A stretch of 63,999 bases of DNA, counting the filler, from Vicugna vicugna (lineage: Eukaryota), in the NCBI GenBank assembly GCA_013265495.1. It is 75 parts of 72 records of this genome, joined end to end, with 100 filler letters (N's around TTAATTAATTAA, not from the genome) between each part and the next. Parts side by side here need not be neighbours in the genome. Positions count along the whole stretch, not along the records: positions 37,155 to 38,323 come from MU059712.1; 74 more parts are not named here. One strand, given 5' to 3'. Position numbers and translations under genes: made by a program. Below the pieces are notes generated by a model that saw only the letters and a list, made by a program, of their open reading frames with translations, was not told where the DNA came from and ran no database searches. This document shows, one piece after another, positions 2,464 to 55,335 of the stretch. The first letter of the stretch is position 1. Each line of letters starts with the position of its first letter.

Positions 2464-3921
2464 GTTTTCTTTTATTGTTAATTCGATTTTATTCCTAGTG
2501 ATGGGTTTGTTCAAGTGGTCGGTTTCTTCTTCATTCAGTCTTGGTGGACTGTATGTTTCCAGAAACTTGTCCATCTCCTCTAGGTTATTCATTTTTTTCC
2601 ATGTAGTTTTTCATGATATTGTCATATGATATTCTGTATTTCTATGGTATTNNNNNNNNNNNNNNNNNNNNNNNNNNNNNNNNNNNNNNNNNNNNNNNNN
2701 NNNNNNNNNNNNNNNNNNNNNNNNNNNNNNNNNNNNNNNNNNNNNNNNNNNNNNNNNNNNNNNNNNNNNNNNNNNNNNNNNNNNNNNNNNNNNNNNNNNN
2801 NNNNNNNNNNNNNNNNNNNNNNNNNNNNNNNNNNNNNNNNNNNNNNNNNNNNNNNNNNNNNNNNNNNNNNNNNNNNNNNNNNNNNNNNNNNNNNNNNNNN
2901 NNNNNNNNNNNNNNNNNNNNNNNNNNNNNNNNNNNNNNNNNNNNNNNNNNNNNNNNNNNNNNNNNNNNNNNNNNNNNNNNNNNNNNNNNNNNNNNNNNNN
3001 NNNNNNNNNNNNNNNNNNNNNNNNNNNNNNNNNNNNNNNNNNNNNNNNNNNNNNNNNNNNNNNNNNNNNNNNNNNNNNNNNNNNNTTTTTTAATAGCATG
3101 TTGTTTAATCTCTATGCTTTCCTTTATTTCTCCTTTGTTTCTCTGTAGTTAATTTCTGGTTTCAATGGCTTTGTGGTCAATAAAGATTCTTGAGATAAAT
3201 TCTATCTTCTTAAAATTGTTGAGGCTTCTTTTGTGACCAAGTGCATGACCAATTTTAGAAAATGTTCCACGTGCACTTGAAAATAATGTATATCCTACTT
3301 TGGGGGGTTGTAATGCTCTCAAAAATATATACTAAATCTAATTTTTCTCTTGTATCATTTAATTTCTCTGTTACCTTATTTATTTTCTGTCTGGAAGATC
3401 TGTCTAGTGATGTTAATGTGGTGTTAAAATTTCTGACAATGATTGTATTCNNNNNNNNNNNNNNNNNNNNNNNNNNNNNNNNNNNNNNNNNNNNNNNNNN
3501 NNNNNNNNNNNNNNNNNNNNNNNNNNNNNNNNNNNNNNNNNNNNNNNNNNNNNNNNNNNNNNNNNNNNNNNNNNNNNNNNNNNNNNNNNNNNNNNNNNNN
3601 NNNNNNNNNNNNNNNNNNNNNNNNNNNNNNNNNNNNNNNNNNNNNNNNNNNNNNNNNNNNNNNNNNNNNNNNNNNNNNNNNNNNNNNNNNNNNNNNNNNN
3701 NNNNNNNNNNNNNNNNNNNNNNNNNNNNNNNNNNNNNNNNNNNNNNNNNNNNNNNNNNNNNNNNNNNNNNNNNNNNNNNNNNNNNNNNNNNNNNNNNNNN
3801 NNNNNNNNNNNNNNNNNNNNNNNNNNNNNNNNNNNNNNNNNNNNNNNNNNNNNNNNNNNNNNNNTTGAACCAGCCCTGTGTCCCTGGGATGAACCCCACT
3901 TGGTCATGACGTATAATCTTT
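2464..3921 (-). mobile_element. LINE-1 ORF2 fragments (endonuclease, linker, RT start), gapped
   Basis: Minus strand encodes NTIIVRNFNTTLTSLDRSSRQKINK (EN), an [16 protein letters not shown] linker and HDQVGFIPGTQGWF (RT region). Confidence 0.9.
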
Positions 3922-4021
3922 NNNNNNNNNNNNNNNNNNNNNNNNNNNNNNNNNNNNNNNNNNNNTTAATTAATTAANNNNNNNNNNNNNNNNNNNNNNN
4001 NNNNNNNNNNNNNNNNNNNNN

Positions 4022-6475: not shown

Positions 6476-7428
6476 TTCGTAGCTTCTTCCTATCACCAGT
6501 TCAAGAATCAAACTTTGATCACAGAAAAATCCTCTTGGGCAGAATTCTACCCTAGAGCTATGTAATTTGAATAGATTCAATCTACGTGATATTCCGTGTT
6601 TCTTACATGATACATACATGACAGATTTGACAAAAATGCATTCCTGAGTTGTGAGCATGTGGATTACTAATCTTTCATCCTGTATAAAAGGAATATTTTC
6701 ATCTTGACATGTGTACACATTTTCACTAGCTCTCCCTAACACCAGTTTCGAATTCGTGCTTTTTTCACAGAAAAATTGTTGTGGAGCGATTTCACCTAAA
6801 AGATACATAATTTACATGAATTCCAACAACATGGCATTCGGGTTCCGTACATGCTACATGCATGACGGATTCGGCAATCATGCGTTTCTGACTTGTGTGC
6901 ATGTGGATTACTGACCTTTCATCCAACAAACAAGGCGTATATACACTAAGAAATATTTACTCTGACTTCATAGATTTTTCTATCACCAGGTTCTAAAATC
7001 GGACATTTGGCACCAAAAAACACTCTTTGAGCGAATTCTCACAAATACACATATAATTTACATTGTTTACATAACCATGGCATTCGGTATTACGAACATG
7101 ATTCATGCATCACGGATTCTTCAAACTTGAATTTCTGAGTTGTGCACATGTGCCTGACTGAAATTTCAAACACCCAACATGTTACCTATGCACTTTGATA
7201 TATTTATTTTGACTTCGTAATTTCTGCCTATAACCAGTTTAAAGAATCACACTTTGATCCCCAAAAAACCCTCTTGGAGCAAATTTTAACCTAGAGATAT
7301 GTAATTTGAATAGATTCCATCTACATGATATTCCATTTTCGTTACATTTTCGTTCTACATAAATGACTGACTTGAGAAACATGCATTCCTGAGTTGAGGG
7401 CATGTGGATTACTAACCTTTTCCTCTAT
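6476..7428 (+). repeat. SatB
   Basis: More than one full unit; the CCAGTT..AAGAATCA.ACTTTGATC block recurs at about 740 bp. Confidence 0.93.
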
Positions 7429-7528: not shown

Positions 7529-8288
7529 CTAACCTACCACCTAAAACAATAACAAAAAGAAGAACAAATAAAATCTAAAGCTAGTAAAAGGAAAGAAATA
7601 ATAAAGGTCAGAGAGGAAATAAATAAAATAGAAAATAAAAAAATCAATCAAATCAAGAGCTGGTTTTTTTTAAAGACTAAACAAAATAAAAAACCTCTGG
7701 CCATGTTCACCAAGAAGAAAAGAGAAAGAGAAATCAAAAAACAAATTAAGAAATGAAAGGGGAAAATCCTCAACAAAATATTAGCAAACAGAATCCAAAA
7801 ACACATAAAAAAATTATACAACATTATCAAGTTGGGTTCATCTCAGGGACACAAGGATGGTTCAACATATGCAAATGAATCAANNNNNNNNNNNNNNNNN
7901 NNNNNNNNNNNNNNNNNNNNNNNNNNNNNNNNNNNNNNNNNNNNNNNNNNNNNNNNNNNNNNNNNNNNNNNNNNNNNNNNNNNNNNNNNNNNNNNNNNNN
8001 NNNNNNNNNNNNNNNNNNNNNNNNNNNNNNNNNNNNNNNNNNNNNNNNNNNNNNNNNNNNNNNNNNNNNNNNNNNNNNNNNNNNNNNNNNNNNNNNNNNN
8101 NNNNNNNNNNNNNNNNNNNNNNNNNNNNNNNNNNNNNNNNNNNNATAGTACTAGAAGTCCTAGCCATAGCAATTAGACAAGAAAAAGAAATAAAAGTGAT
8201 CAAAATTAGAAGAGAAGAGGTAAAACTGTCATTACATGCAGAAGACATGATACTATATATATATAAAACCCTAAAGGCTCCACACAGA
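7529..8288 (+). mobile_element. Degraded LINE-1 ORF2 with internal deletion
   Basis: KEIIKVREEINKIE...KSWFF joins directly to KILNKILANRIQKHIKKII..QVGFISGTQGWFN. After the gap, [17 protein letters not shown]...[12 protein letters not shown] shows a mutated FADD motif. Confidence 0.92.
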
Positions 8289-8388
8289 NNNNNNNNNNNN
8301 NNNNNNNNNNNNNNNNNNNNNNNNNNNNNNNNTTAATTAATTAANNNNNNNNNNNNNNNNNNNNNNNNNNNNNNNNNNNNNNNNNNNN

Positions 8389-9429
8389 GATATCCCAGTG
8401 ACAGAGGCTGCCTCCCCAAGTTAAGGGAAGATAATTCTCGGACTTCCCCGAACACGGAACCCCTGTGAACGAAGTGAGCTGCGTGGAGTTGTCTCTCGAG
8501 CTCCCCCACGCACTGACAATGGTTCCGGAATCCCGAGCGTGGGGAGCTTCCACCAACGGTCGGCAGCGCGTGGGTTCTAACGGAATGCATAAGCTCGTCT
8601 CCCCTGAGGGTTTTCCTTATGTCTCTGTGCAAGGGAATGCTAGGGGTGATTGCAGAATTTCCCAGTGACAGAGGCTACCTCCCCAAGATCAGAGAAGATA
8701 TTTCTCAGACTTCCCCGAACAGGGAACACCTGTGACTGAAGAGAGCTGCGTGGAGTTGTCTCTCGTGCTCCCCCTCGCACTGACAATGTTTCCGGAAACC
8801 TGATCTTTGCGAGGTTCCACCAGCGGTCGGCAGCACGTGGGTTCTAACGGAATGCATAAGCTCGTCTCCCGTGATGGTTTTCCTAATGTCTCTGTGCCAG
8901 GGAATTCCAGGGTGGTTTGCAGGATAACACAGTGACAGATGCTGCCTCCCCAAAGTCAGGGAAGTTTATTCCTCGGACTTCCCCGAACAGGGAACAACTG
9001 TGAATGAAGAGAGCTGAGTGGAGTTGTCTCTCGAGCTCCCCCACGCACTGACAATGGTTCCGGAATCCTGAGCGTGGGGAGGTTCCACCAACGGTCGGCA
9101 GCGCGTGGGTTCTAACGGAANNNNNNNNNNNNNNNNNNNNNNNNNNNNNNNNNNNNNNNNNNNNNNNNNNNNNNNNNNNNNNNNNNNNNNNNNNNNNNNN
9201 NNNNNNNNNNNNNNNNNNNNNNNNNNNNNNNNGCTGGTCTCCAGGTGTTCCTTATTTCTCGGTGCAAGGGAATGCTAGGTGTTATTGCAGAATATCCCAG
9301 TAACTGAGGCTGCCTCACCAAGGTCAGGGAATGTATTTCCCGGACTTACCCGAACAGGGAACACCTGTGATTTATAGAGTTGCCTTTAGTTTTATCTCGA
9401 GATCCCCTACGCACTGACAATGGTTCCGG
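8389..9429 (-). repeat. SatA
   Basis: Reverse-orientation 267-bp monomers. Confidence 0.95.
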
Positions 9430-9529: not shown

Positions 9530-10459
9530 CTGACAGCAGCGCCTGGGTTCTAATTGAATCCCTTTGCTTTTCTTACCTGATGGAAAGGATAGGCGGGAGT
9601 GCGGGGGAAAGTGTGGTTTGGGCTCCGAAACCAAGTATTTGCGATGACCTCTCTATGGATTGTGAAGGTGTTTAAACTACAACCCTAACCTGGGAACACA
9701 TGTGCCCCCATAAAAATCCGTGGAGTGTGTTTCCACACCTCCAGCACACACACGAACACTTGCACAGTTTTCCTGAGAGTGGGCAGCCTCCTCCAACTGA
9801 GAGCAGGGCCTTGGTTCTTATAAAATCGCTTNNNNNNNNNNNNNNNNNNNNNNNNNNNNNNNNNNNNNNNNNNNNNNNNNNNNNNNNNNNNNNNNNNNNN
9901 NNNNNNNNNNNNNNNNNNNNNNNNNNNNNNNNNNNNNNNNNNNNNNNNNNNNNNNNNNNNNNNNNNNNNNNNNNNNNNNNNNNNNNNNNNNNNNNNNNNN
10001 NNNNNNNNNNNNNNNNNNNNNNNNNNNNNNNNNNNNNNNNNNNNNNNNNNNNNNNNNNNNNNNNNNNNNNNNNNNNNNNNNNNNNNNNNNNNNNNNNNNN
10101 NNNNNNNNNNNNNNNNNNNNNNNNNNNNNNNNNNNNNNNNNNNNNNNNNNNNNNNNNNNNNGAGGCCAAATAGTAGCGAGTGTCCCCGATGGACTGAGGA
10201 AGTATTTAGATGAATTCTCCATAAAGGGAAACACCTGAGCACCCATTCATCTGCGTGGAGTGGGGCTTCAAATCTCCCCACCACACAAGGTTGGGTTCTA
10301 GTATCCTGAGGTTGGGGTAGCTCCTCCAACTGACATCAGCGTCTAGGGTTTAATAGAATCCCTTTGCTTGTCGTCCCTGATGGTTTGCCTAGGCCAGTGC
10401 GTGGTTGAATGTGTGATTTGGGATCTAAAACTAAGTATTTGCGTGTGCCTCTCCATGGG
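9530..10459 (-). repeat. SatD, diverged SatA-related satellite
   Basis: CCTGAG..TGGG...CTCCTCCAACTGA.AGCAG...GGGTT.TAATAGAATCCCTT blocks are shared with 20142-20673. Confidence 0.85.
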
Positions 10460-15747: not shown

Positions 15748-16234
15748 GACGCTGCTATCAGTTGGAGGAACTTCCCCACACTCAGTATTCCGCAAAAAAG
15801 CCTTGTGTGGGGGGAAGCTGGGTAGACCAACAGCAGGCAGAAGGCTGGGGGCACACTTGTTTCCAGTTATGTAGATGTCCGCTAATTACCTCCAGAGTCA
15901 ATCAGGGGGCACTCGCAGCTACTTGAATTCCAAGCCCAGCCAACAGCTTTCCCTTGCAGCCCGGCGTAGGAAAATACAAAGGGAAGACACGCTAATGGAT
16001 TCTATTTGAACCCAGGGGCAGCTGTCAGATGGAGGAGCCTGTCAACCCTCAGGATAACAGAGCACGACTTCGTGTGTGTGCTGGAGGTGAGAAAAGAGAG
16101 TACACACATATTTCTGGGGGCACAGTTATTCCCAGGTTGGGGGATGTAAGTTAAACACCTCCACATCCCATGGAGAGGCACACGCTAATACTAGGTTTTA
16201 GAGCCCAACCCCCACTTTCGCTCACAGCCCGGTG
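15748..16234 (+). repeat. SatD
   Basis: The GGAGGA..CTCAG block at 15764 recurs at 16031 (period 267); the two monomers are strongly diverged. Confidence 0.85.
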
Positions 16235-20141: not shown

Positions 20142-20673
20142 TTGGAACACCTCTGCCCCCATTCATCTGCGTGGACTGGGTCTCCAAACCTCCCCCGCAC
20201 ACAAAAGATTCTCTGGAGTCCTGAGTGTTGGGAAGTTCCTCCAAGTGACAGCAGCACCCGGGTTCTATACAATTCCTTAGATTGTATTCCCTGATGGCTT
20301 GTCCTGCCAGGAGTGTGGGGGAAATTAGAGGTTGGGCTCTAAAACGAAGTATTAGCGAGTGCATATCCATGGGATGTGGAGGTGTTTAAGCTACATCCTC
20401 CAACCTAGGCATACACCCATGAAAAATGCGTGGACTCTGTTTCCACACCTCCAGCACACGTGCGAAGAAGTGTTCTGGTTTCCTGAGTGTGGGGAGGCTC
20501 CTCCAACTAAAAGCAGCACCAGGGATCTAATAGAATTCCTTAGCTTGACTTCCTAGAGTGTTCTCCTAGGCCGGTCTTTGAGAGAAGGAGGGGGTTGGGC
20601 TCTAAAGCCAAGTAATAGCCAGTGCCTTTCTATGGTCATTGAAGGTGTTTAAATTACATCATCTACCTGGGAA
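20142..20673 (-). repeat. SatD
   Basis: CCTGAGTGT..GG at 20220 and 20482 (period 262). Confidence 0.87.
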
Positions 20674-29374: not shown

Positions 29375-30519
29375 NNNNNNNNNNNNNNNNNNNNNNNNNN
29401 NNNNNNNNNNNNNNNNNNTTAATTAATTAANNNNNNNNNNNNNNNNNNNNNNNNNNNNNNNNNNNNNNNNNNNNTCTTAGCTCAGCCAACATTTGGAACA
29501 GAAGAGCTAATTTCCAGTGAAGCCCAGGACTTTGTTGAACTCGTTCGAGTGAGATCTGATAGGATTTAGGTTTGTTTTCAGATCTGGATGTTTACTTAGC
29601 TAGAAACGTCCTGTCATTTCGATTTCCATAGTGGTTTTTATTCTTGATAAAGATTGCTTTCTTGCTGAGAGGAAATTTAATACAGCTGTTGTCTTTTTCA
29701 AAAAAAATCATATCTTTTAAGAACTTTAATATTCAAAAGAACAGGAATATATAAAATTGTTAAAGTAAGTGTTTGGTGTAGTTTCTTTGCTTTCTGAGCT
29801 AATGTGGAGTTAGAGCCTTTGCATTACTTAATAGCACATCCTTGTCAGTATTTAAAGAGCTGTTACTGAGTGCCCTAGGCCCCACCTCTCAAAGAATCAT
29901 TAAAGTTTGCTGTGAAATAGTGAGGTCATAAAGGTCTTGTTTGCAGAAATCAAAGAGTTGGTTTATAATACGCAGCATAACTCTATTTACAAAATAATAA
30001 TATGTTCAAAATTAACAAAGTGGAGGACAATTAATTTTTTTTAAAGCTGAAACATAAACTTTCTTGTGATAATGTTGCAACTGGAGATTTTGAAANNNNN
30101 NNNNNNNNNNNNNNNNNNNNNNNNNNNNNNNNNNNNNNNNNNNNNNNNNNNNNNNNNNNNNNNNNNNNNNAAAGTCAGGAGCATTCCAGCTCAGATACTG
30201 GCAGTGATGGTTGCTGGTTTTCAATGGTATAGCCTAAATTTGCCTTCTTAGCTTTTGTTTTTTTTTTGTAGTGAGCGGGTTGAGTAGTGCTTTGCCAGCA
30301 TGNNNNNNNNNNNNNNNNNNNNNNNNNNNNNNNNNNNNNNNNNNNNTTAATTAATTAANNNNNNNNNNNNNNNNNNNNNNNNNNNNNNNNNNNNNNNNNN
30401 NNGATGTTACTGACGCTAATGCCCTCACTCTCCTTGGCTGTACATTGCACCTGCATGGAACCGGGTAACAAATGGTCCATGTACCAACCTGTATTTTCAG
30501 CTTACAGGTGAATTCGGCC

Positions 30520-31169
30520 ACAATCTCCAACAAATAGCAGAAACCCTGGGAACTCTGCAAAATCAGATTGACTCTCTGGCCGAGGTGGTCTTACAAAACA
30601 GGAGGGGTCTATCCCTTACTCACGGCCAAAGAGGGGGGACTATGCCTCTTCCTAAAACAAAGAGTGCTGTTTTTATGCCAGTCCATCAGGAATTGTCAGA
30701 AGGATGGTTCAAGAGTTACAAGACCGAGTAAAAAGAGAAAACATATTTTAGATAAGAGCCCGTGAACAGGCCCCTGGGGCTGGACCTCCTGGCTGGCACC
30801 ATTCATAGGTCCCTTGCTAGTGAACAGGCCCCTGGGGCTGGACCTCCTGGCTGGCACCATTCATAGGTCCCTTGCTCCTGATTTTTGCAGTTCTGCTATT
30901 TGGGCCCTGTGTCCTAAACTTCCTGACCCGCTTTGTCAATGAGTGGATAGAGGCTATAAAACTTCAGATGCTAGCCTCCAATTATGAGCCCCTATAACAG
31001 ATAATGATGATGCTTACTCCAACTAGGGTTGTAAAAGCATCAAGAGAGGAGAATGTGAAGGAAAAGCTGGGCTGGGCTAACAAGATAACTCACAAATCTA
31101 AGTATCAGAATATGATCTGAGTTCTGCTGGACTACTCATAAATTTAAGTTAATTAGTGTTGGTTTGCTG
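30520..31169 (+). mobile_element. Decayed gamma-type (ERV1) env TM region, polypurine tract and start of 3' LTR
   Basis: LQNQIDSLAEVVLQNRRGL / LLTAKEGGLCLFL / ECCFY (immunosuppressive domain and CX6CC, split by frameshifts), TM segment PLLLIFAVLLFGPCVLNFL, PPT AAGAGAGGAGAA, then TG at 31054. Confidence 0.88.
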
Positions 31170-33769: not shown

Positions 33770-34638
33770 AATCACCCCTAGCATTCCCTGGCACAGAGAA
33801 ATTAGGAAAACACGGGGGGATAGATGAGCTTAGGCATTCAGTTAGAACCCACGCGCTGCCGACCGTTGGTGGAACCTCCACACGCTCAGGATTCCGGAAA
33901 CATTGTCAGTGCGTGGGGGAGCTCGAGAAACAACTCCACGCAGCTCTCTTCATTCACAGGTGTACCCAGTTCGGGGAAGTCCGGGAAATATCTTCCCTGA
34001 TCTTGGGGAGGCAGCGTATGTCACTGGGATATCCTGCAAGCCCCCCTACCATTCCCTGGCACATAGACATTAGGAAAACCCTCAGGGGAGACGAGCTTAG
34101 GCATTCCGTTAGAACCCACGCGCTTCCGACCGTTGGTGGAACCTCCCCACGCTCAGGATTCCGGAACCATTGTCAGTGCGTGGGGGAGCTCGAGAGACAA
34201 CTCCACGCAGCTCTCTTCATTCACAGGGGTTCCCAGGAAATACATTCCCTAACCTTGGGGATTCAGCGTATGTCACTGGGATATCCTGCAAACCCCCCTA
34301 CCATTCCCTGGCACAGCGACATTAGGAAAACCCTCAGGGGAGACGAGCTTAGGCATTCCGTTAGAACCCACGCGCTGCCGACCGTTGGTGGAACCTCCCC
34401 ACGCTCAGGATTCCGGAACCATTGTCAGTGCGTGGGGGAGCTCGAGAGACAACTCCACGCAGCTCTCTTCATTCACAGGGGTTCCCTGTTCGGGGAAGTG
34501 CGGGAAATACATTCCCTAACCTTGGGGATTCAGCGTATGTCACTGGGATATCCTGCAATCACCCCTAGCATTCCCTGGCACAGACATATTATTAAAATCC
34601 TCAGGGGAGACGAGCTTAGGCATTCCGTTACAACCCAC
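33770..34638 (+). repeat. SatA
   Basis: About three homogeneous monomers, one with a 15-bp net deletion near 34233. Confidence 0.95.
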
Positions 34639-34738: not shown

Positions 34739-35190
34739 ATTTGTTTAAATCTGCACTTCTATTTAACGATTTTTTTAAATGCAAATTATTTCTTCTAGTA
34801 AACAGTTTGTTCAAATTATTTGTTTCTACTTATTTCTGTCCCTTTCTAGACATTTGTCTATTTCTTCTAAGTTGTCCAGTTTATTTGAATGTGTTGACAA
34901 AATGATCCCTTTTTTGTATATTTGAAGAAATTATTGTTATTTCTCTTCTTTTATTTCTTACTTTATTTCTTTGGGGTATCTCTCTATTCTTCATGATGCA
35001 CCTGGCTAGAGGTTTTTTGATTTTGCTTATCTTAAAAAGAAAACAAAAAAAATCTTTGGTTTTACTGCTCTTTTGCATAGTTTTCTTTTTCTCTCTAATG
35101 TAAATTACACCTGTAATACTTAATAACATTTTTTTAAGTTTTCTATATTGATTTACAGTCATTTTACAAAGTTGTCTCCAATCCCAGCAT
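34739..35190 (-). mobile_element. Old LINE-1 ORF2 fragment next to an L1 3' end
   Basis: Minus strand reads SKTKDFF..FKISKIKKPLARCIMKNRE..NKVRNKRREIT, a degenerate ORF2 linker. Confidence 0.75.
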
Positions 35191-35290
35191 NNNNNNNNNN
35201 NNNNNNNNNNNNNNNNNNNNNNNNNNNNNNNNNNTTAATTAATTAANNNNNNNNNNNNNNNNNNNNNNNNNNNNNNNNNNNNNNNNNNNN

Positions 35291-36358: not shown

Positions 36359-37154
36359 NNNNNNNNNNNNNNNNNNNNNNNNNNNNNNNNNNNNNNNNNN
36401 NNTTAATTAATTAANNNNNNNNNNNNNNNNNNNNNNNNNNNNNNNNNNNNNNNNNNNNTTTTGTTTATTTACAGAGGTGGATTTTCCTATCACCTCTGAA
36501 TGCATTTTGTAATTAATACAGCAAATATCTGTTTTTGCAGTGCTTAATTATTTCATAAACTATTTATTGGCTTAAGCAGAAACAATGACAAAGAGTGATA
36601 ATAAAAAAGTATGAGAAACTTCCTTCCTTTGAAAAATAGAAATGAGGTGGTCAGCCTCACCCATGCTTTGTGCCTGACACACTCTCATGTCATTGTGTAT
36701 CTTGATTCTTAGATGGAGTTGCTTCAGGTTTGTAGATTATTGTTTGAACACTTTTGTTGAATCCTTTCTTGAGGCTGATGTATCCTGTTGGGTGTGTGGA
36801 AAGAGACGTAGAAGGGAAACAAATTCTTTTTTTTGTTTTCAGGAGGCCTGAGTTGATGAGAAAAGAGTTGAGGGTGGGCTGAAAAACAGAGTGACACTCC
36901 CTCTCCTCCCAGCTGAAATTGATACACAAAAAATCAATCAATTGTATAGGTAGTTGACCAACAGAAGTTAGTGTGCCCAAACTGTCTAGATATGCCCAAA
37001 GGAAAGTATTGAATTCAGCTGCAGAATTATGTGCTTTACCAAGATGAAGCAGCTNNNNNNNNNNNNNNNNNNNNNNNNNNNNNNNNNNNNNNNNNNNNTT
37101 AATTAATTAANNNNNNNNNNNNNNNNNNNNNNNNNNNNNNNNNNNNNNNNNNNN

Positions 37155-37390
37155 GCCATTGGCGGAGGCCGCTGCCTCTGGCTGTCAATCCCGCGGCCCT
37201 GCCCCGCCCCACCAGCCGAGCGTGGCAGGACGCAGAGCCGCGGGGACTGGCGGGACGGCTCCAAGATGGCCGCGCTTGGGGTCCGCACCTGCTGGCGTCC
37301 CCGAGCCCCGTTCACTGCCACCGCTGCTGACCGGAGCCGCCGGTCGGCCCGGCGACTCCGGGGGCTGTCCCCGCGTGGCGGGAGGCCGCC
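37155..37390 (+). promoter_or_regulatory. HTT: HTT-like CpG-island proximal promoter and 5' UTR with upstream ATG
   Basis: Blocks colinear with the recalled HTT 5' region: GCCATTGGC, GGCTGTCAATC, GC box GCCCCGCCCC (37201-37210), CCAAGATGG (uATG 37266), GAGCCCC.TTCA.TGCC, GTCGGCCCG, GGCGGGAGGCCGCC-ATG. Confidence 0.88.
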
Positions 37391-37431
37391 ATGGTGAACC
37401 TGGAAAAGCTGGCGAAGGCCTTCGAGTGCCT
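37391..37431 (+). CDS. HTT: Divergent huntingtin exon-1 start (MVNLEKLAKAFEC[L]), truncated by N gap; paralog or pseudogene
   Basis: ATG GTG AAC CTG GAA AAG CTG GCG AAG GCC TTC GAG TGC CT versus canonical MATLEKLMKAFESL; strong Kozak GCCGCCATGG. Confidence 0.85.
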
Positions 37432-38423
37432 NNNNNNNNNNNNNNNNNNNNNNNNNNNNNNNNNNNNNNNNNNNNNNNNNNNNNNNNNNNNNNNNNNNNN
37501 NNNNNNNNNNNNNNNNNNNNNNNNNNNNNNNNNNNNNNNNNNNNNNNNNNNNNNNNNNNNNNNNNNNNNNNNNNNNNNNNNNNNNNNNNNNNNNNNNNNN
37601 NNNNNNNNNNNNNNNNNNNNNNNNNNNNNNNNNNNNNNNNNNNNNNNNNNNNNNNNNNNNNNNNNNNNNNNNNNNNNNNNNNNNNNNNNNNNNNNNNNNN
37701 NNNNNNNNNNNNNNNNNNNNNNNNNNNNNNNNNNNNNNNNNNNNNNNNNNNNNNNNNNNNNNNNNNNNNNNNNNNNNNNNNNNNNNNNNNNNAAACAGTG
37801 TTTAACTGTCAAAACACTGTATATGCAAAATACTAGGTTAACTTAAGGGAAGGAGTAGGAGAGAAGGGGGAAAGGAGCGAAGTTCACCGGTTACTTCTGT
37901 GGGGGTGGGTTAGGTGGTCACAGCGGTGAACGCTTAACTGCTACATGGCCCCGTGCGCTTACCATCATAGTCATTACTGTTACTAACCCCAGACAGCCCT
38001 GGTATTAAGGAGGCATGACCACAGAACATGTGCTCATTGAGCTTAATTTTACACAAACAGTAAGATTTCCACGGAATCAAGACAGGNNNNNNNNNNNNNN
38101 NNNNNNNNNNNNNNNNNNNNNNNNNNNNNNNNNNNNNAGCATGGCATGATCAGAACTTTAGTTTGACTGGCTTGAAATGTAGAGGGAAAGGGAAACTTCA
38201 CACTGATGAATCAGAGAGGAGATAGCTGTTTTTTATTAAACTAAAATGATTGAATGAGCCTTGTTGATTAATGATTTACCTTAGCAATTTGAATTTGGAT
38301 TCTGCAAGTATTTTACAAGTTCTNNNNNNNNNNNNNNNNNNNNNNNNNNNNNNNNNNNNNNNNNNNNTTAATTAATTAANNNNNNNNNNNNNNNNNNNNN
38401 NNNNNNNNNNNNNNNNNNNNNNN

Positions 38424-39491
38424 TACATAATATTCCGTGTTCCGTACATACTGCATACATGACGGATTTGACAAACATGCATTCCCGAATTGACGGCATC
38501 TGGATTACTAGTCTTTCATCCTCTATAAAAGGAATATTTTCATCTAGACTCGTGTACATATTTTCACAAGCTTTCCCCAAAACCAGTTTCGAATTCGTGC
38601 TTTTTTCACAGAAAAATAGTTCTGGAGCGATTTCCACCTAACAGATATGTAATTTACATGAATTCCAACAACATGGCATTCCGGGTTCCGTACATGCTGC
38701 ATATATGACGGATTTGGCAATCATGCNNNNNNNNNNNNNNNNNNNNNNNNNNNNNNNNNNNNNNNNNNNNNNNNNNNNNNNNNNNNNNNNNNNNNNNNNN
38801 NNNNNNNNNNNNNNNNNNNNNNNNNNNNNNNNNNNNNNNNNNNNNNNNNNNNNNNNNNNNNNNNNNNNNNNNNNNNNNNNNNNNNNNNNNNNNNNNNNNN
38901 NNNNNNNNNNNNNNNNNNNNNNNNNNNNNNNNNNNNNNNNNNNNNNNNNNNNNNNNNNNNNNNNNNNNNNNNNNNNNNNNNNNNNNNNNNNNNNNNNNNN
39001 NNNNNNNNNNNNNNNNNNNNNNNNNNNNNNNNNNNNNNNNNNNNNNNNNNNNNNNNNNNNNNNNNNNNNNNNNNNNNNNNNNNNNNNNNNNNNNNNNNNN
39101 NNNNNNNNNNNNNNNNNNNNNNNNNNNNNNNNNNNNNNNNNNNNNNNNNNNNNNNNNNNNNNNNNNNNNNNNNNNNNNNNNNNNNNNNNNNNNNNNNNNN
39201 NNNNNNNNNNNNNNNNNNNNNNNNNNNNNNNNNNNNNNNNNNNNNNNNNNNNNNNNNNNNNNNNNNNNNNNNNNNNNNNNNNNNNNNNNNNNNNNNNNAC
39301 ACATTTTCACAAGCTTTTCCTAAAACCAGTTTCTAATTCGTGGTGTTTTCACAGAAAAAGAGTTCTGGAGCGATTTCAACCTAACAGATATGTAATTTAC
39401 ATGAATTCCAACAACTTGGCTTTCAGGGTTCCGTAATTGCTGCATATATGACGGATTTGGCAATCATGAGTTTCTGACTTCTGAGCATGTG
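38424..39491 (+). repeat. SatB
   Basis: SatB motifs. Confidence 0.93.
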
Positions 39492-50186: not shown

Positions 50187-52740
50187 AGAATGTAGAACAC
50201 AGAATATAGAATATAGTATAAGGAATGCATAGTAAAGAATACAGAATATAGAATGTAGAACACAGAATATAGAATGTAGGACACAGAATATAGAATATGG
50301 AATACAGAATACAGAACCCAGAATTTAGAACATGGAATGCAGAACACAGAATTTAGAATATAGAAAACAGAATACTGAAATTAGAATATAGAATGTAGAA
50401 TGAAGAACACAGAATATAGAATATAGAATATGGAAGGAAGAATATAGCATACAGAATATAGAATGTAGAACACAGAATATAGAATATGGAAAACAGAATC
50501 CAGAACTCAGAATATAAAACATGGAATGCAGAACACAGAATTTAGAATATAGAATACAGAATACTGAATGCAGAATTTAGAATAAGAATGTAGAATCTGA
50601 AGAATATAGATTAGAGAATATAGAAACCAGTATCTAGAACATGGAATGCAGAACACAGAATTTAGAATATAGAATACAGAATACTGAATGCAGAATTTAG
50701 AATATAGAATGTAGAACACAGTCTGAAGAATATAGATTAGAGAATATAGAAACCAGTATTTAGAACATGGAATGCAGTACACAGAATTTATAATATAGAA
50801 TACATTATACTGAATATTGAATCTAGAAAATTGAATATAGAACACAGAATATAGCATATACAATAGAGAATATAGAACCCAGAATTTAGAACATGGAATG
50901 NNNNNNNNNNNNNNNNNNNNNNNNNNNNNNNNNNNNNNNNNNNNTTAATTAATTAANNNNNNNNNNNNNNNNNNNNNNNNNNNNNNNNNNNNNNNNNNNN
51001 TTCTGTGTTCTACATTCTATATTCTAAATTTTATATTCAGCATTCCATATTCTATATTCTATTTTCTGTGTTCTACATTCCATATTCTAAATTCTATATT
51101 CAGCATTCCGTATGCTTTATTTTAAATTCTGTGTTCTGCATTCCATGTTCTAAATTCTGGGTTCTATATTCTCTGTTTTATATTATATATTATGTGTTCC
51201 GCATTCTATGTTCCAAATTGTATATTCAGTTTTCTGTGTTCTATACCCGAAATTCTATGTTCTGCATTCCATGATCTAAATTCTGTGTTCTGTATTCTGC
51301 TTTCCATATTCTATATTCTGTTTTCTACATTCTATATACTGTTTTCTATATTCTGTATTCCATATTGTATATTCGATATTCTGTGTTCTACATTCCATAT
51401 TCTAAATTTTATATGCAGTATTGTGTATTCTATATTCTAAATACTGTGTTCTTCATTCCATGTTCTAAATTTTGGGTGCTGTATTCTGTTTTCCGTATTC
51501 TATATTCTGCGTTCTATATTCAATATTCTGTATTCTATTTTCTACATTCCGTATCCTGTATTGTATATTCTGTGTTCTTCATTCTACATTCTAAATATTC
51601 TACATTCTAAATTCTATATTCAGTATTCTGTATTCTATATTCTAAATTCTGTGTTCTGCATTCCATGTTCTAATTTCTGGGTTCTATATTCTGTATTCTA
51701 TATTCTATATTTCGTGTTCTACTTTTTATATACTAAATTCTATATTCAATATACTGTNNNNNNNNNNNNNNNNNNNNNNNNNNNNNNNNNNNNNNNNNNN
51801 NTTAATTAATTAANNNNNNNNNNNNNNNNNNNNNNNNNNNNNNNNNNNNNNNNNNNNTATTCTAAATTCTATATTCAGTATTCTTTATTCTACATTCTAT
51901 ATACTGTGTTCTGCATTCAATGTTCATAATACTATATTCATTATTCTGTATACTATATTCTAAATTCTGTGTTCTGCATTCCATGTTCTCTGTTCTGGTT
52001 TCTGTATTCTCTTTTCCATATTCTAAATTCTGTGTTCTTAATGCTAAAATCTAAATTCTATATTCAGTATTCTGTTTTCTAACTTTTAAATTCTGCTTTC
52101 TGTAATCCATGTTCTATATACTTTTTTCAGTATACTATATTCTATATCCTAAATTCTGTGTTCTGCATTCTATGTTCTAAATTCTATATTCAGTATTCTG
52201 TATTATATATTCTAAATTCTGTGTCCTGCATTCTATGACCTAAATTCTGGATTCTATATTCTCTATTTTATATTCTGTGTTCTAAATTCTATATTCTAAA
52301 TTCTATATTTAGTATTCTGTATTCTATATTCTAAATTCTGTGTTCTGCATTTCGTGTTCTAAATTCTTGATTCTATATTCTATATTTATATCCTGTGTTC
52401 TAAACTCTATATTCTAAAATCTATATTAAGTATTCTGTTTTCTATATTCTAAATTGTGTGTTGTGCATTCCATGTTCTAATTTCTGGGTTCTATATCCTC
52501 TATTCTCTATTCTATATTGTTTGTTCTTCATTCTATACTCTACATACTATATTTTGTATTCCGTATTCTATATTCTAAATTCTGTGTTCTGCATTCTATA
52601 TTCTGAATTCTATAAATTATTCTGTATTCTATATACTAAATTTTGTGTTCTGCATCCATGTTATAAATTCTGGGTTCTGTATTCTGTATTCCATCTTCTA
52701 TATTCTGTGTTCTACATTCTATATTCTGTTTTCTATATTC
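50187..52740. repeat. SatC, three contigs (50187-50900 minus; 51001-51757 and 51858-52740 plus)
   Basis: Continuous TTCnnnn heptamer tiling. Confidence 0.95.
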
Positions 52741-52840: not shown

Positions 52841-53528
52841 ACAGGTGTTCCCAGGTTTGGATGTAGTTTAAACACCTCCACTGAATATAGAGACGCACAC
52901 GCTAATACTTGGCTTTAGAGCCCAACCCCCACCTAGGCTCAGAGCCCGGCCTAGGGAAACACTGAATGATGCCAAACGTAGGGATTATATTAGATCCCAG
53001 GTGCTTCTGTCAGTTGGAGGAGTCTCCCCACACTCAGGATACCAGAACACCACATCGTGTGTGTGCTGAAGGTGGGGAAACAGTGTCCTTGCAACTTTCA
53101 GGGGGCACAGGTATTCCCAAATATTTGGTTGTAGNNNNNNNNNNNNNNNNNNNNNNNNNNNNNNNNNNNNNNNNNNNNNNNNNNNNNNNNNNNNNNNNNN
53201 NNNNNNNNNNNNNNNNNNNNNNNNNNNNNNNNNNNNNNNNNNNNNNNNNNNNNNNNNNNNNNNNNNNNNNNNNNNNNNNNNNNNNNNNNNNNNNNNNNNN
53301 NNNNNNNNNNNNNNNNNNNNNNNNNNNNNNNNNNNTGGGGAAAGATACGCATTTTTGGGGGGGCACAGTTGTTCCAAGTTTGGGGATGTATTTTAAACAC
53401 CTCCACTGCCCAGAGAGAGTCACTCGCTATTTCTAGTCATTAGTGCCCAGCACCCAACTTTGCTCACAGCCTGGCCAATGGATACACTCAGGGAAAGCAA
53501 GCCAAATGATATTATAAGTTCCCAGTTG
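52841..53528 (+). repeat. SatD
   Basis: TTAAACACCTCCAC..GCTAATACTT and GTCAGTTGGAGGAG..CCCACACTCAGGA blocks as in 15748-16234. Confidence 0.85.
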
Positions 53529-54411: not shown

Positions 54412-55335
54412 AGGTTCTTTAGGAGCGGCTAGATCAGTAGGAGCAGCAGGCTCTTCAGGAGTGGCAGGCTCCTCACGAGCAGCAAGATCAGCAGGAGCTT
54501 CAGGCTCTTCAGGAGCGTCAGGCTCAACAGGAGTGGCAACATCAGCAGGAGCTGCAGGCTCTTCAGTAGTGGCAATATCAGCAGGCTTTTCAGGAGCGGC
54601 TAGGTCATTAGGAGCAGCAGGCTCTTCAAGAGCGGCAGGCTCTTCAGCAGCGGCAAGATCAGCAGGCTCTTCAGGAGCTACAGGCTCTTCAGTAGCGGCA
54701 AAATCAGCAGGCTTTTCAGGAGCGGCTAGGTCATTAGGAGCAGCAGGCTCTTCAAGAGCGGCAGGCTCTTGAGGAGTGGCTAGATCAGCAGGAGCAGCAG
54801 GCTCTTCAGGAGTGGCAGGCTCTTCAGCAGCGGCAAGATCAGGAGGCTCTTCCGGAGCGGCAGGCTCTTCAGGAGCGGCTTGATCAGCAGGAGCGTCAGG
54901 CTCTTCAGGAAGGGCAGGCTCTTCAGGANNNNNNNNNNNNNNNNNNNNNNNNNNNNNNNNNNNNNNNNNNNNNNNNNNNNNNNNNNNNNNNNNNNNNNNN
55001 NNNNNNNNNNNNNNNNNNNNNNNNNNNNNNNNNNGCGGCAGGCTCTTCAGGTGCGGCAGGCTCTTCAGGAGCGGCAGGCTCAACAGGAGTGGCAACATCA
55101 GCAGGAGCTGCAGGCTCTTCAGTAGTGGCAAAATCAGCAGGCTTTTCAGGAGCGGCTAGGTCATTAGGAGCAGCAGGCTCTTCAAGAGCGGCAGGCTCTT
55201 CAACAGCGGCAAGATCAGCAGGCTCTTCAGGAGCGGCTTGAGCAGCAGGAGCGTCAGGCTCTTCAGGAAGGGTAGGCTCTTCAGGAGCGTCAGGCTCTTC
55301 AGGTGCAGCAGGCTGTTCAAGACTGTCAGGCTCTT
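54412..55335 (-). CDS. Putative acidic Pro/Glu/Ala repeat coding segment (PEEPAA units); product unidentified
   Basis: 18-bp unit CCTGAAGAGCCTGCCGCT with 27-bp variants. The EEP frame is stop-free in both 54412-54928 and 55035-55335. No start, stop or splice site is visible. Confidence 0.55.

What the first reader, a model, noticed from the sequence alone, without database searches (positions are those of the whole stretch)
37155..37431. Huntingtin exon-1 copy with a rewritten N17 domain and retained promoter
Seen: HTT-type promoter, 5' UTR and Kozak, then MVNLEKLAKAFEC. Against the recalled human sequence, all 5 differences in 41 nt are non-synonymous (A2V, T3N, M8A, S13C) and none is silent. 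Established: HTT is single-copy, N17 is essentially invariant in mammals, T3 and S13 are phosphosites, M8 is the oxidation-sensitive residue, and the export-signal residues L4, L7 and F11 are retained here. CpGs remain dense, and upstream promoter sequence argues for a genomic duplicate over a retrocopy. Inference: a lineage-specific HTT paralog under relaxed or positive selection, possibly still transcribed. The polyQ/polyP tract would lie in the gap at 37432-37792. The sample is tiny.
Basis: partly seen in the sequence, partly recalled or inferred. Interest (0 to 1): 0.85.

Follow-up and report, generated by a model that had tools for sequence, protein, structure and literature searches.

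The report
Amplified camelid huntingtin–NAALAD2 fusion family
This is one of many copies of a camel- and alpaca-family hybrid gene in which the promoter and first exon of the Huntington's disease gene are joined to a broken piece of the NAALAD2 enzyme gene; it looks like a transcribed, decaying duplicate rather than a new huntingtin, and I found no paper that describes it.

Summary
In detail: an HTT promoter, uORF, 5'UTR and codons 1-13 with five non-synonymous changes and no silent one. The setting changes its meaning. The window is a string of 75 unplaced scaffolds from a South American camelid, and the locus is a 1.2-kb scaffold. Contigs from three DNA runs of related animals cover it at 640-1390x, 12-27 times the next sequence class, so it belongs to a high-copy family. 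Alpaca, dromedary, Bactrian and wild-camel gene models of the family splice HTT exon 1 to a few internal NAALAD2 (GCPIII) exons, never to HTT exon 2. None is named huntingtin. Different copies are modelled in all three reading frames, N17 changes differ among copies, polyQ shrinks to two or becomes a minisatellite, and the peptidase EE motif is EK. Five of five non-synonymous changes fit neutrality (P 0.09-0.30). The M8A-type change is shared by alpaca and Bactrian camel copies, so it is old. Best reading: a segmental-duplication fusion that captured the HTT promoter, was amplified, is still transcribed and is drifting (0.65). A selected young gene family is not excluded. My searches found no paper on it.

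The parts
37055..37154 (.). Artificial scaffold linker (44 N + 12-nt spacer + 44 N); left end of the true scaffold
   Evidence: the same linker separates 75 scaffolds
37155..37265 (+). HTT promoter / 5' flank, CpG-rich, with a GC-box-like element at 37204-37209
   Evidence: collinear with genomic HTT of another mammal (P0012); high-depth contigs run past the scaffold end; GC-box label is recalled
37266..37397 (+). Upstream ORF from the ATG at 37266. In this copy it is 43 codons and ends at a TGA created by the A2V base. Most copies carry 2 extra nt after 37270, which puts this ATG into the long poly-Ala frame used by most gene models
   Evidence: ORF and stop; table 4 (insertion in X1, X2, X8, X15); models start here
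37269..37390 (+). HTT-derived 5'UTR with strong Kozak context; 37299-37394 identical to the major family contigs
   Evidence: table 8 (X1 record 2 at 686x, X2 record 18 at 698x, 0 differences in 96 nt); its translation matches alpaca model P0013 over residues 4-29
37391..37431 (+). N17 codons 1-13 plus 2 nt: A2V, T3N, M8A, S13C
   Evidence: A2V and T3N polymorphic among copies (table 3); M8A-compatible in alpaca P0001 and P0011 and Bactrian P0044
37432..37792 (+). Gap. By relatives it should hold the rest of exon 1 (L14-F17, short polyQ, polyP-derived repeats, one-base loss near the exon end), the splice donor and at least 232 nt of family intron
   Evidence: inferred from loose ends and 329-nt contigs and from models; not read in this copy
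37793..38086 (+). Non-coding, CpG-poor sequence of the amplified unit (first intron of the fusion, inferred)
   Evidence: stops in all three + frames; contigs at 760-1270x; no match to any model protein
38138..38323 (+). Further non-coding sequence of the amplified unit
   Evidence: single contigs of 404-489 nt at 1305x, 1357x and 1389x in X1, X2, X8, 3 differences in 144-148 nt
38324..38423 (.). Artificial linker; right end of the scaffold

Best explanation
Before camels and South American camelids split, a DNA-level duplication joined the HTT promoter, exon 1 and its splice donor to an internal, intron-containing piece of NAALAD2 (GCPIII). The unit was then copied to tens to hundreds of places on several chromosomes. 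The captured CpG-island promoter still drives RNA that splices from the exon-1 donor into the NAALAD2 exons and cryptic exons. No reading frame is held constant, so N17, the CAG/CCG tract and the peptidase motif drift. The window holds one such copy. Shown: homology, high copy number, the fusion structure in relatives, loss of constraint on N17. Inferred: that this copy is itself joined to NAALAD2, that the family is transcribed, the timing, and the lack of a selected protein.
For: Copy number: single contigs at 640-1390x over all three pieces in three DNA runs of three organisms, against a second class at 51-110x and weak matches at 3-15x (ratios 12-27 and 88-408). Identity: 8 of 9 hits to the exon-1 frame are camelid models. 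Their C-terminal part is closest to GCPIII (3fec, E 1.5e-18 and 3.7e-29). 15 of 17 hits to the NAALAD2-derived part are camelid, on 5 alpaca, 4 current dromedary, 4 Bactrian and 1 wild-camel contigs. Genomic origin: models read through or splice at internal NAALAD2 positions and carry optional cassette exons. No fixed frame: poly-Ala frame (P0001, P0002, P0008, P0011), N17 frame (P0026, P0053, P0054), third frame (P0044; P0013 and P0051 in part). N17 differs by copy: M8 is impossible in all 5 poly-Ala-frame models tested, F11 in 3 of 5, K6 in 1 of 5; P0026 has M8L, F11L, S16F, F17L and two Q. The second E of the WDAEE motif is K. Neutral test P 0.09-0.30. One of two deep RNA contigs has a stop in the poly-Ala frame.
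Against: No DNA of the annotated loci could be fetched, so no dN/dS was run. The downstream frame stays open in more than 20 models of four species, and its 44-residue NAALAD2 segment is identical in 6 models from alpaca, dromedary, Bactrian and wild camel; this could mean constraint, though annotation only lists copies with open frames. The two one-base losses that join the uORF frame to the NAALAD2 frame appear in both subfamilies, and M8 is lost by at least two routes (A and L). The link of this copy to NAALAD2 lies outside the scaffold. Contig depth is a rough measure and the single-copy depth of the runs is unknown. RNA evidence is gene models plus one contig set that cannot show strand or level.
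Confidence: 0.65

Rival explanations
1. A young, selected protein-coding family. The extended HTT uORF (or, in some copies, the N17 ATG) makes a 130-380-residue protein of HTT 5'UTR, poly-Ala-frame exon 1 and NAALAD2-derived residues, and copy number was favoured, for example in the reproductive tract.
For: Long open frames from the uORF ATG in alpaca, dromedary and wild camel; shared frame-joining one-base losses; little change in the NAALAD2 segment across species; many splice isoforms; two contigs at about 1050x over the 5'UTR against 42-106x elsewhere in an RNA run labelled reproductive system (a weak hint).
Against: Copies are modelled in three frames; this copy lacks the 2-nt insertion and closes its uORF at 37397; one deep RNA contig has a stop in that frame; no Pfam family in 10 of 10 models; GC-rich frames stay open by composition (P0012, a normal HTT, is open for 237 codons in the same frame).
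Confidence: 0.2
2. The RNA or the locus, not a protein, is what matters: a multi-copy non-coding transcript sharing the HTT 5'UTR that competes with or silences HTT or NAALAD2, or a promoter island that keeps heterochromatic blocks open.
For: CpG density kept (o/e 0.84); 96 nt of 5'UTR identical between this copy and the major contigs of two other organisms; spliced isoforms in four species.
Against: No direct evidence. Recent amplification or homogenisation explains the identity, and an unmethylated island keeps its CpGs without selection.
Confidence: 0.1
3. One reading: a full or near-full HTT paralog whose N17 was remodelled by positive selection.
For: Five of five changes are non-synonymous and hit known modification sites (T3 and S13 phosphorylation: passages of PMC7459410).
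Against: Not significant; no family model contains HTT sequence beyond exon 1; the changes are not shared as a set.
Confidence: 0.03
4. A mis-assembled or error-laden piece of the single true HTT.
For: 277-nt contig in a fragmented assembly; several of its bases differ from all laid runs, and S13C is unseen elsewhere.
Against: A2V and T3N occur at hundreds-fold depth in independent runs; an M8A-type change is in alpaca and Bactrian models; the UTR frame matches alpaca model P0013.
Confidence: 0.02

Closest known systems
Marmoset HTT pseudogene pHTT (Iennaco et al. 2022, PMC8817008; passages and supplement 25 parts 1-3 read)
   Same: An extra HTT exon 1 freed from selection, with decay of the CAG and proline tracts.
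   Different: pHTT is a processed copy of the first nine exons at one described site in a CNTNAP3 intron. This family is a genomic duplicate with promoter, holds exon 1 only, is fused to NAALAD2, is multi-copy and appears spliced.
Pseudogene-rich repetitive blocks of alpaca chromosomes 11, 17 and 36 (Mendoza-Cerna et al. 2026, PMC13751797; abstract, parts 2-4 of 8 and one supplement read)
   Same: Multi-copy, fragmented gene-derived sequences (NEK10, ATF5, FMN2-like, ABHD17A, ACTB, uS3m) in repeat-rich camelid DNA, read by the authors as duplication followed by decay.
   Different: The paper names neither HTT nor NAALAD2 in what I read, and reports its blocks as absent or reduced in camels; this family has copies in all three camel species.
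Primate fusion genes born in segmental duplications, such as CHRFAM7A, USP6 and the POTE-actin genes (recalled, not from a call)
   Same: A mosaic of two donor genes, intron-containing, amplified, transcribed from a captured promoter.
   Different: Those have a defined protein frame; here copies use three frames and no protein has been shown.
NAALAD2 / glutamate carboxypeptidase III (PDB 3fec)
   Same: Donor of about 75 residues of the fusion.
   Different: About a tenth of the 707-residue chain, frameshifted in the middle, EE motif changed to EK; it cannot be the enzyme.

Membership tests
Huntingtin (orthologue or full paralog) | Invariant N17 start | tested here: not met
   4 of 13 residues differ; 43 of 43 therian sequences are invariant
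Huntingtin (orthologue or full paralog) | Exon 1 spliced to exon 2 and HEAT-repeat body | tested here: not met
   in relatives exon 1 joins NAALAD2-derived or cryptic exons; not readable in this copy
Huntingtin (orthologue or full paralog) | Single copy (PMC1636649 passage) | tested here: not met
   models on many contigs
Huntingtin (orthologue or full paralog) | A separate canonical HTT exists in this genome | not testable with these tools
   no whole genome held; human-like contigs are filtered; no camelid among the mammalian HTT rows read
Processed HTT pseudogene (marmoset type) | No promoter, spliced HTT exons joined | tested here: not met
   upstream flank collinear with genomic HTT; no HTT exon 2 in any model
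Segmental-duplication fusion gene family | Mosaic of two donor genes | tested here: met
   HTT exon 1 + NAALAD2 in models of four species
Segmental-duplication fusion gene family | Multiple dispersed copies | tested here: met
Segmental-duplication fusion gene family | Donor introns retained | tested here: met
   alternative ends and cassette exons at internal NAALAD2 positions (P0007, P0017, P0030, P0047); inferred from proteins, DNA not seen
Segmental-duplication fusion gene family | Spliced transcripts made | tested here: inconclusive
   multi-isoform models and RNA contigs of run X15; no reads, strand or junction seen
Segmental-duplication fusion gene family | Selected protein product | not testable with these tools
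   no DNA of the annotated loci, no ribosome or peptide data
M28 peptidase NAALAD2/GCPIII | Full-length chain with intact EE motif (catalytic and zinc-binding glutamates; roles recalled) | tested here: not met
   about 75 of 707 residues, EE to EK; no Pfam hit

The most novel reading that the evidence does not exclude
Camelids built a new multi-copy gene family from the HTT promoter and uORF. It naturally expresses exon-1 products in the poly-Ala and N17 frames, fused to NAALAD2-derived residues, under selection (possibly in reproductive tissue), with loss of Met8 favoured. It would be a healthy mammal making abundant HTT exon-1-type peptides from about a hundred loci whose CAG/CCG tract has become an expandable minisatellite.
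Probability: 0.2. Interest if true: 0.85.

Novelty: new member of a known kind. Interest (0 to 1): 0.55.

Why it matters
HTT is treated as single-copy with a nearly invariant exon 1. Camelids seem to carry tens to hundreds of extra promoter-plus-exon-1 copies, hidden in annotation under names such as PHOX2B-like, FAM71B-like, EspK-like and NAALAD2-like. Even if neutral, they are a replicated natural experiment on how the CAG/CCG tract, the uORF and N17 mutate without selection; the marmoset pseudogene gave one such data point. They also matter in practice for HTT PCR, read mapping and expression estimates in camels, alpacas and llamas. If a product is made and selected, this is a gene family born from a disease gene's uORF and shifted frame.

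Tried and rejected
No whole genome is held, so copies could not be counted directly and canonical HTT was not located. A PDB search with the 33-residue N17-frame peptide found nothing at E 10, and it was too short for the homolog search. Two 30-nt patterns found nothing in metagenome contigs. Four published alpaca satellite primers did not match the window; a VpaSat05 motif did. No tRNA genes. No Pfam family in 10 of 10 models. Weak tblastn matches of the poly-Ala models to 54412-55335 are low-complexity noise. The fall in contig depth after 37394 and the lack of cover in the gap are not findings: human-like contigs are filtered. Positive selection on N17 was rejected as unsupported. A retrocopy origin was rejected. 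Literature: no description found; some searches sought satellite or assembly papers and the uORF. Passages of PMC7830431, PMC6598621, PMC9484127 and bioRxiv 2025.08.28.672513 hold no HTT duplication. The original uORF paper is not held. Subscription journals, the VicPac4 assembly paper, bioRxiv supplements, 12 of 25 supplements of PMC8817008 and the figure supplements of PMC13751797 were not seen and could mention the family; satellite monomers there were cut at 400 letters. Earlier scan findings: none on HTT.

Full report
Setting. The window is not a chromosome stretch. It is 75 small scaffolds joined by a fixed 100-base linker, mostly satellites: a 267-bp family (19 scaffolds), a second family (16) and a 7/63-bp family (11). 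The finding lies on scaffold 37155-38323, made of three contigs (37155-37431, 37793-38086, 38138-38323), with no match to any other scaffold. No whole genome is held. A motif of the alpaca satellite VpaSat05, reported as restricted to South American camelids (PMC13751797), matches three times in scaffold 54412-55335 against none in 100 shuffles, and the closest protein model is alpaca. The source is therefore most likely a South American camelid.

Observation. The sequence is as described: MVNLEKLAKAFEC, five substitutions in 41 nt against human, cow, sheep, orca, dog and horse HTT, all non-synonymous, while 43 of 43 therian sequences with complete codons 1-13 are invariant (PMC8817008 supplement 25, parts 1-3; compared by eye). 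T3 and S13 are phosphorylation sites and N17 holds an export signal (passages of PMC7459410); the roles of M8, L4, L7 and F11 individually are recalled. The upstream part is HTT promoter and 5'UTR: its open frame aligns end to end with a genomic HTT of another mammal (P0012). There are two ATGs, the uORF start at 37266 and the main start at 37391; a conserved inhibitory uORF in mammalian HTT is stated in PMC1636649 (passage).

Selection. From the window's own codons, 21-38% of random changes would be silent, depending on transition and CpG bias; the chance of none among five is 0.09-0.30. The pattern shows loss of constraint, not positive selection.

Copy number. Of 24 listed runs, 14 from five organisms held 44-52% of the sampled words. 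I laid four. In the three DNA runs, single contigs cover all three pieces at 640-1390x with 0-5% difference. A second class, 6-15% different, stands at 51-110x, and weak matches of about 82% identity at 3-15x, one of them a 2.7-kb contig at 15.5x. The ratios are 12-27 and 88-408. The single-copy depth is unknown and the tool warns that depth is no copy number, so I read this as at least a dozen and plausibly about a hundred copies. The family is polymorphic: at 37395 the A2 base has 420 of 654 depth in X1, 110 of 1156 in X2 and 0 of 337 in X8; at 37398 the T3 base has 654 of 654 in X1 and 816 of 1156 in X2. These shares are biased, because human-like contigs are filtered out. One loose end continues as canonical L-K-S-F; another reads S13, H14, K, S, F, two Q, then prolines. 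Nearly all depth carries two extra bases after 37270 that this copy lacks.

What the family is. The 92-codon frame found 2 hits among 104 candidates and 7 among 4335. Eight of the nine are alpaca, dromedary or wild-camel models; the ninth is P0012. None is named huntingtin. They start at the uORF ATG, read exon 1 in the poly-Ala frame, regain the HTT frame at the last residues of exon 1 through a one-base loss, and splice to other exons. Those exons are NAALAD2: the best structure match is GCPIII. Dromedary LOC116151677 isoform X3 (P0026) shows the N17 frame directly: an N17 with M8L, F11L, S16F and F17L, two Q, a proline tract, then the GCPIII active-site segment with EE changed to EK. A search with the NAALAD2-derived part gave 17 hits among 19 candidates, 15 camelid, one frog and one unnamed plain peptidase fragment. 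Cluster members lie on 5 alpaca contigs (35.8-99.4 Mb), 4 of the current dromedary assembly, 4 Bactrian and 1 wild-camel contig. Many of these models begin in the NAALAD2 part, so I cannot show that each carries HTT exon 1; those that do are at least five alpaca loci and one in each camel species. Optional cassette exons and read-through ends at internal positions indicate that NAALAD2 introns came along. The duplication was thus at DNA level on both sides.

State of the copies. Models use the poly-Ala frame, the N17 frame and the third frame. From the ATG to the end of exon 1 they span about 150 to 516 nt, the long ones being tandem expansions of the polyQ/polyP-coding tract (P0011, P0036, P0044). 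Reading the N17 frame back from the other frames, M8 is impossible in 5 of 5 poly-Ala models (two of them probably one locus), F11 in 3 of 5 and K6 in 1 of 5. Bactrian P0044 allows only A or E at position 8 and is otherwise compatible with canonical N17. So the M8A-type change is shared across a split that PMC13751797 puts at more than 11 million years; A2V and T3N vary among copies; S13C is unseen elsewhere. In this copy the uORF closes at a TGA made by the A2V base, so the long poly-Ala product cannot be made here, while the N17 frame is open to the gap.

Expression. The models have up to five or more splice isoforms per locus in four species, which as a rule reflects RNA-seq support (my knowledge, not checked). 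In RNA run X15 two contigs of 1071x and 1030x cover 37271-37394, against 106x upstream and 42-71x on the 3' pieces. They differ from each other at nine or more of 124 positions, too many for alleles, and one has a stop in the poly-Ala frame. Contigs cannot show strand, start or level, so this is a hint only.

Against my reading. The NAALAD2-derived 44 residues are identical in six models from four species and differ by one to three residues elsewhere. The frame-joining one-base losses are common to both subfamilies, and M8 was lost by two routes. Without DNA I could not test selection, and annotation lists only copies with open frames. The link between this scaffold and NAALAD2 is inferred from relatives.

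Mechanism. Most likely (0.65): a stem-camelid segmental duplication fused the HTT promoter and exon 1 to an internal NAALAD2 segment; the unit spread with repeat-rich DNA; the promoter keeps it transcribed; nothing holds a reading frame. Rivals: a selected young protein family (0.2), a functional RNA or locus (0.1), a true HTT paralog with selected N17 (0.03), assembly error (0.02).

Known and new. It works like the fusion duplicons of primates (recalled) and the pseudogene-rich blocks described in alpaca (PMC13751797), and is not a member of huntingtin, of the processed marmoset pHTT type or of the M28 peptidases. Searches for HTT duplication, HTT with Camelus, huntingtin-like multicopy genes and NAALAD2 with camel found no description. 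The library lacks most subscription journals and several supplements were not seen. The loci are in RefSeq under misleading names. Verdict: real, more extensive than first reported, probably neutral; new member of a known kind; interest 0.55.

Noticed in passing
window 54412-55335: Short-period repeat array matching the start of alpaca satellite VpaSat05-8550 (three motif matches); open for 130-260 codons in several frames.
   Followed up: partly
window-wide: 19 scaffolds such as 1-907, 8389-9429, 33770-34638: 267-bp satellite at 85-90% identity between copies, with a diverged branch (9530-10459, 15748-16234, 20142-20673, 52841-53528); resembles VpaSat16 by eye. Probably the centromeric repeat; no paper with this monomer was found.
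   Followed up: partly
window-wide: 16 scaffolds such as 6476-7428, 38424-39491; 11 scaffolds such as 50187-52740: A second satellite family (about 36% GC, CpG o/e up to 0.9) and a 7-bp-based AT-rich satellite with 63- and 125-bp higher periods.
   Followed up: no
window 30420-30731 +: Open frame resembling a fragment of an endogenous retrovirus envelope transmembrane subunit (resemblance recalled).
   Followed up: no
window 3255-3965, 7757-8332, 34881-35234: L1 ORF2-like fragments on five related scaffolds (label recalled).
   Followed up: no
window 37954-38082 (run X2 record 23): A 2.7-kb contig at 15.5x, about 82% identical, extends about 2.4 kb towards the exon without a listed match to HTT exon 1; possibly the single-copy donor of the unit's intron, which would date the fusion well before the camelid split.
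   Followed up: no
proteins P0001, P0005, P0008, P0011, P0056: Database names PHOX2B-like, IF-2-like, EspK-like, FAM71B-like and SEC14-like are low-complexity misnomers for HTT exon 1 read in the poly-Ala frame. The 'formin-2-like' copies on alpaca chromosome 11 in PMC13751797 might be the same units read in the proline frame (untested).
   Followed up: partly
protein P0031 (dromedary, named USP32): Carries the same NAALAD2-derived exons joined to unrelated sequence; may mark a further fusion of the unit or a mis-joined model.
   Followed up: no
proteins P0027, P0029, P0056, P0057: A second subfamily keeps S where the major one has Y in the NAALAD2 segment; it may match the 51-110x contig class.
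   Followed up: partly
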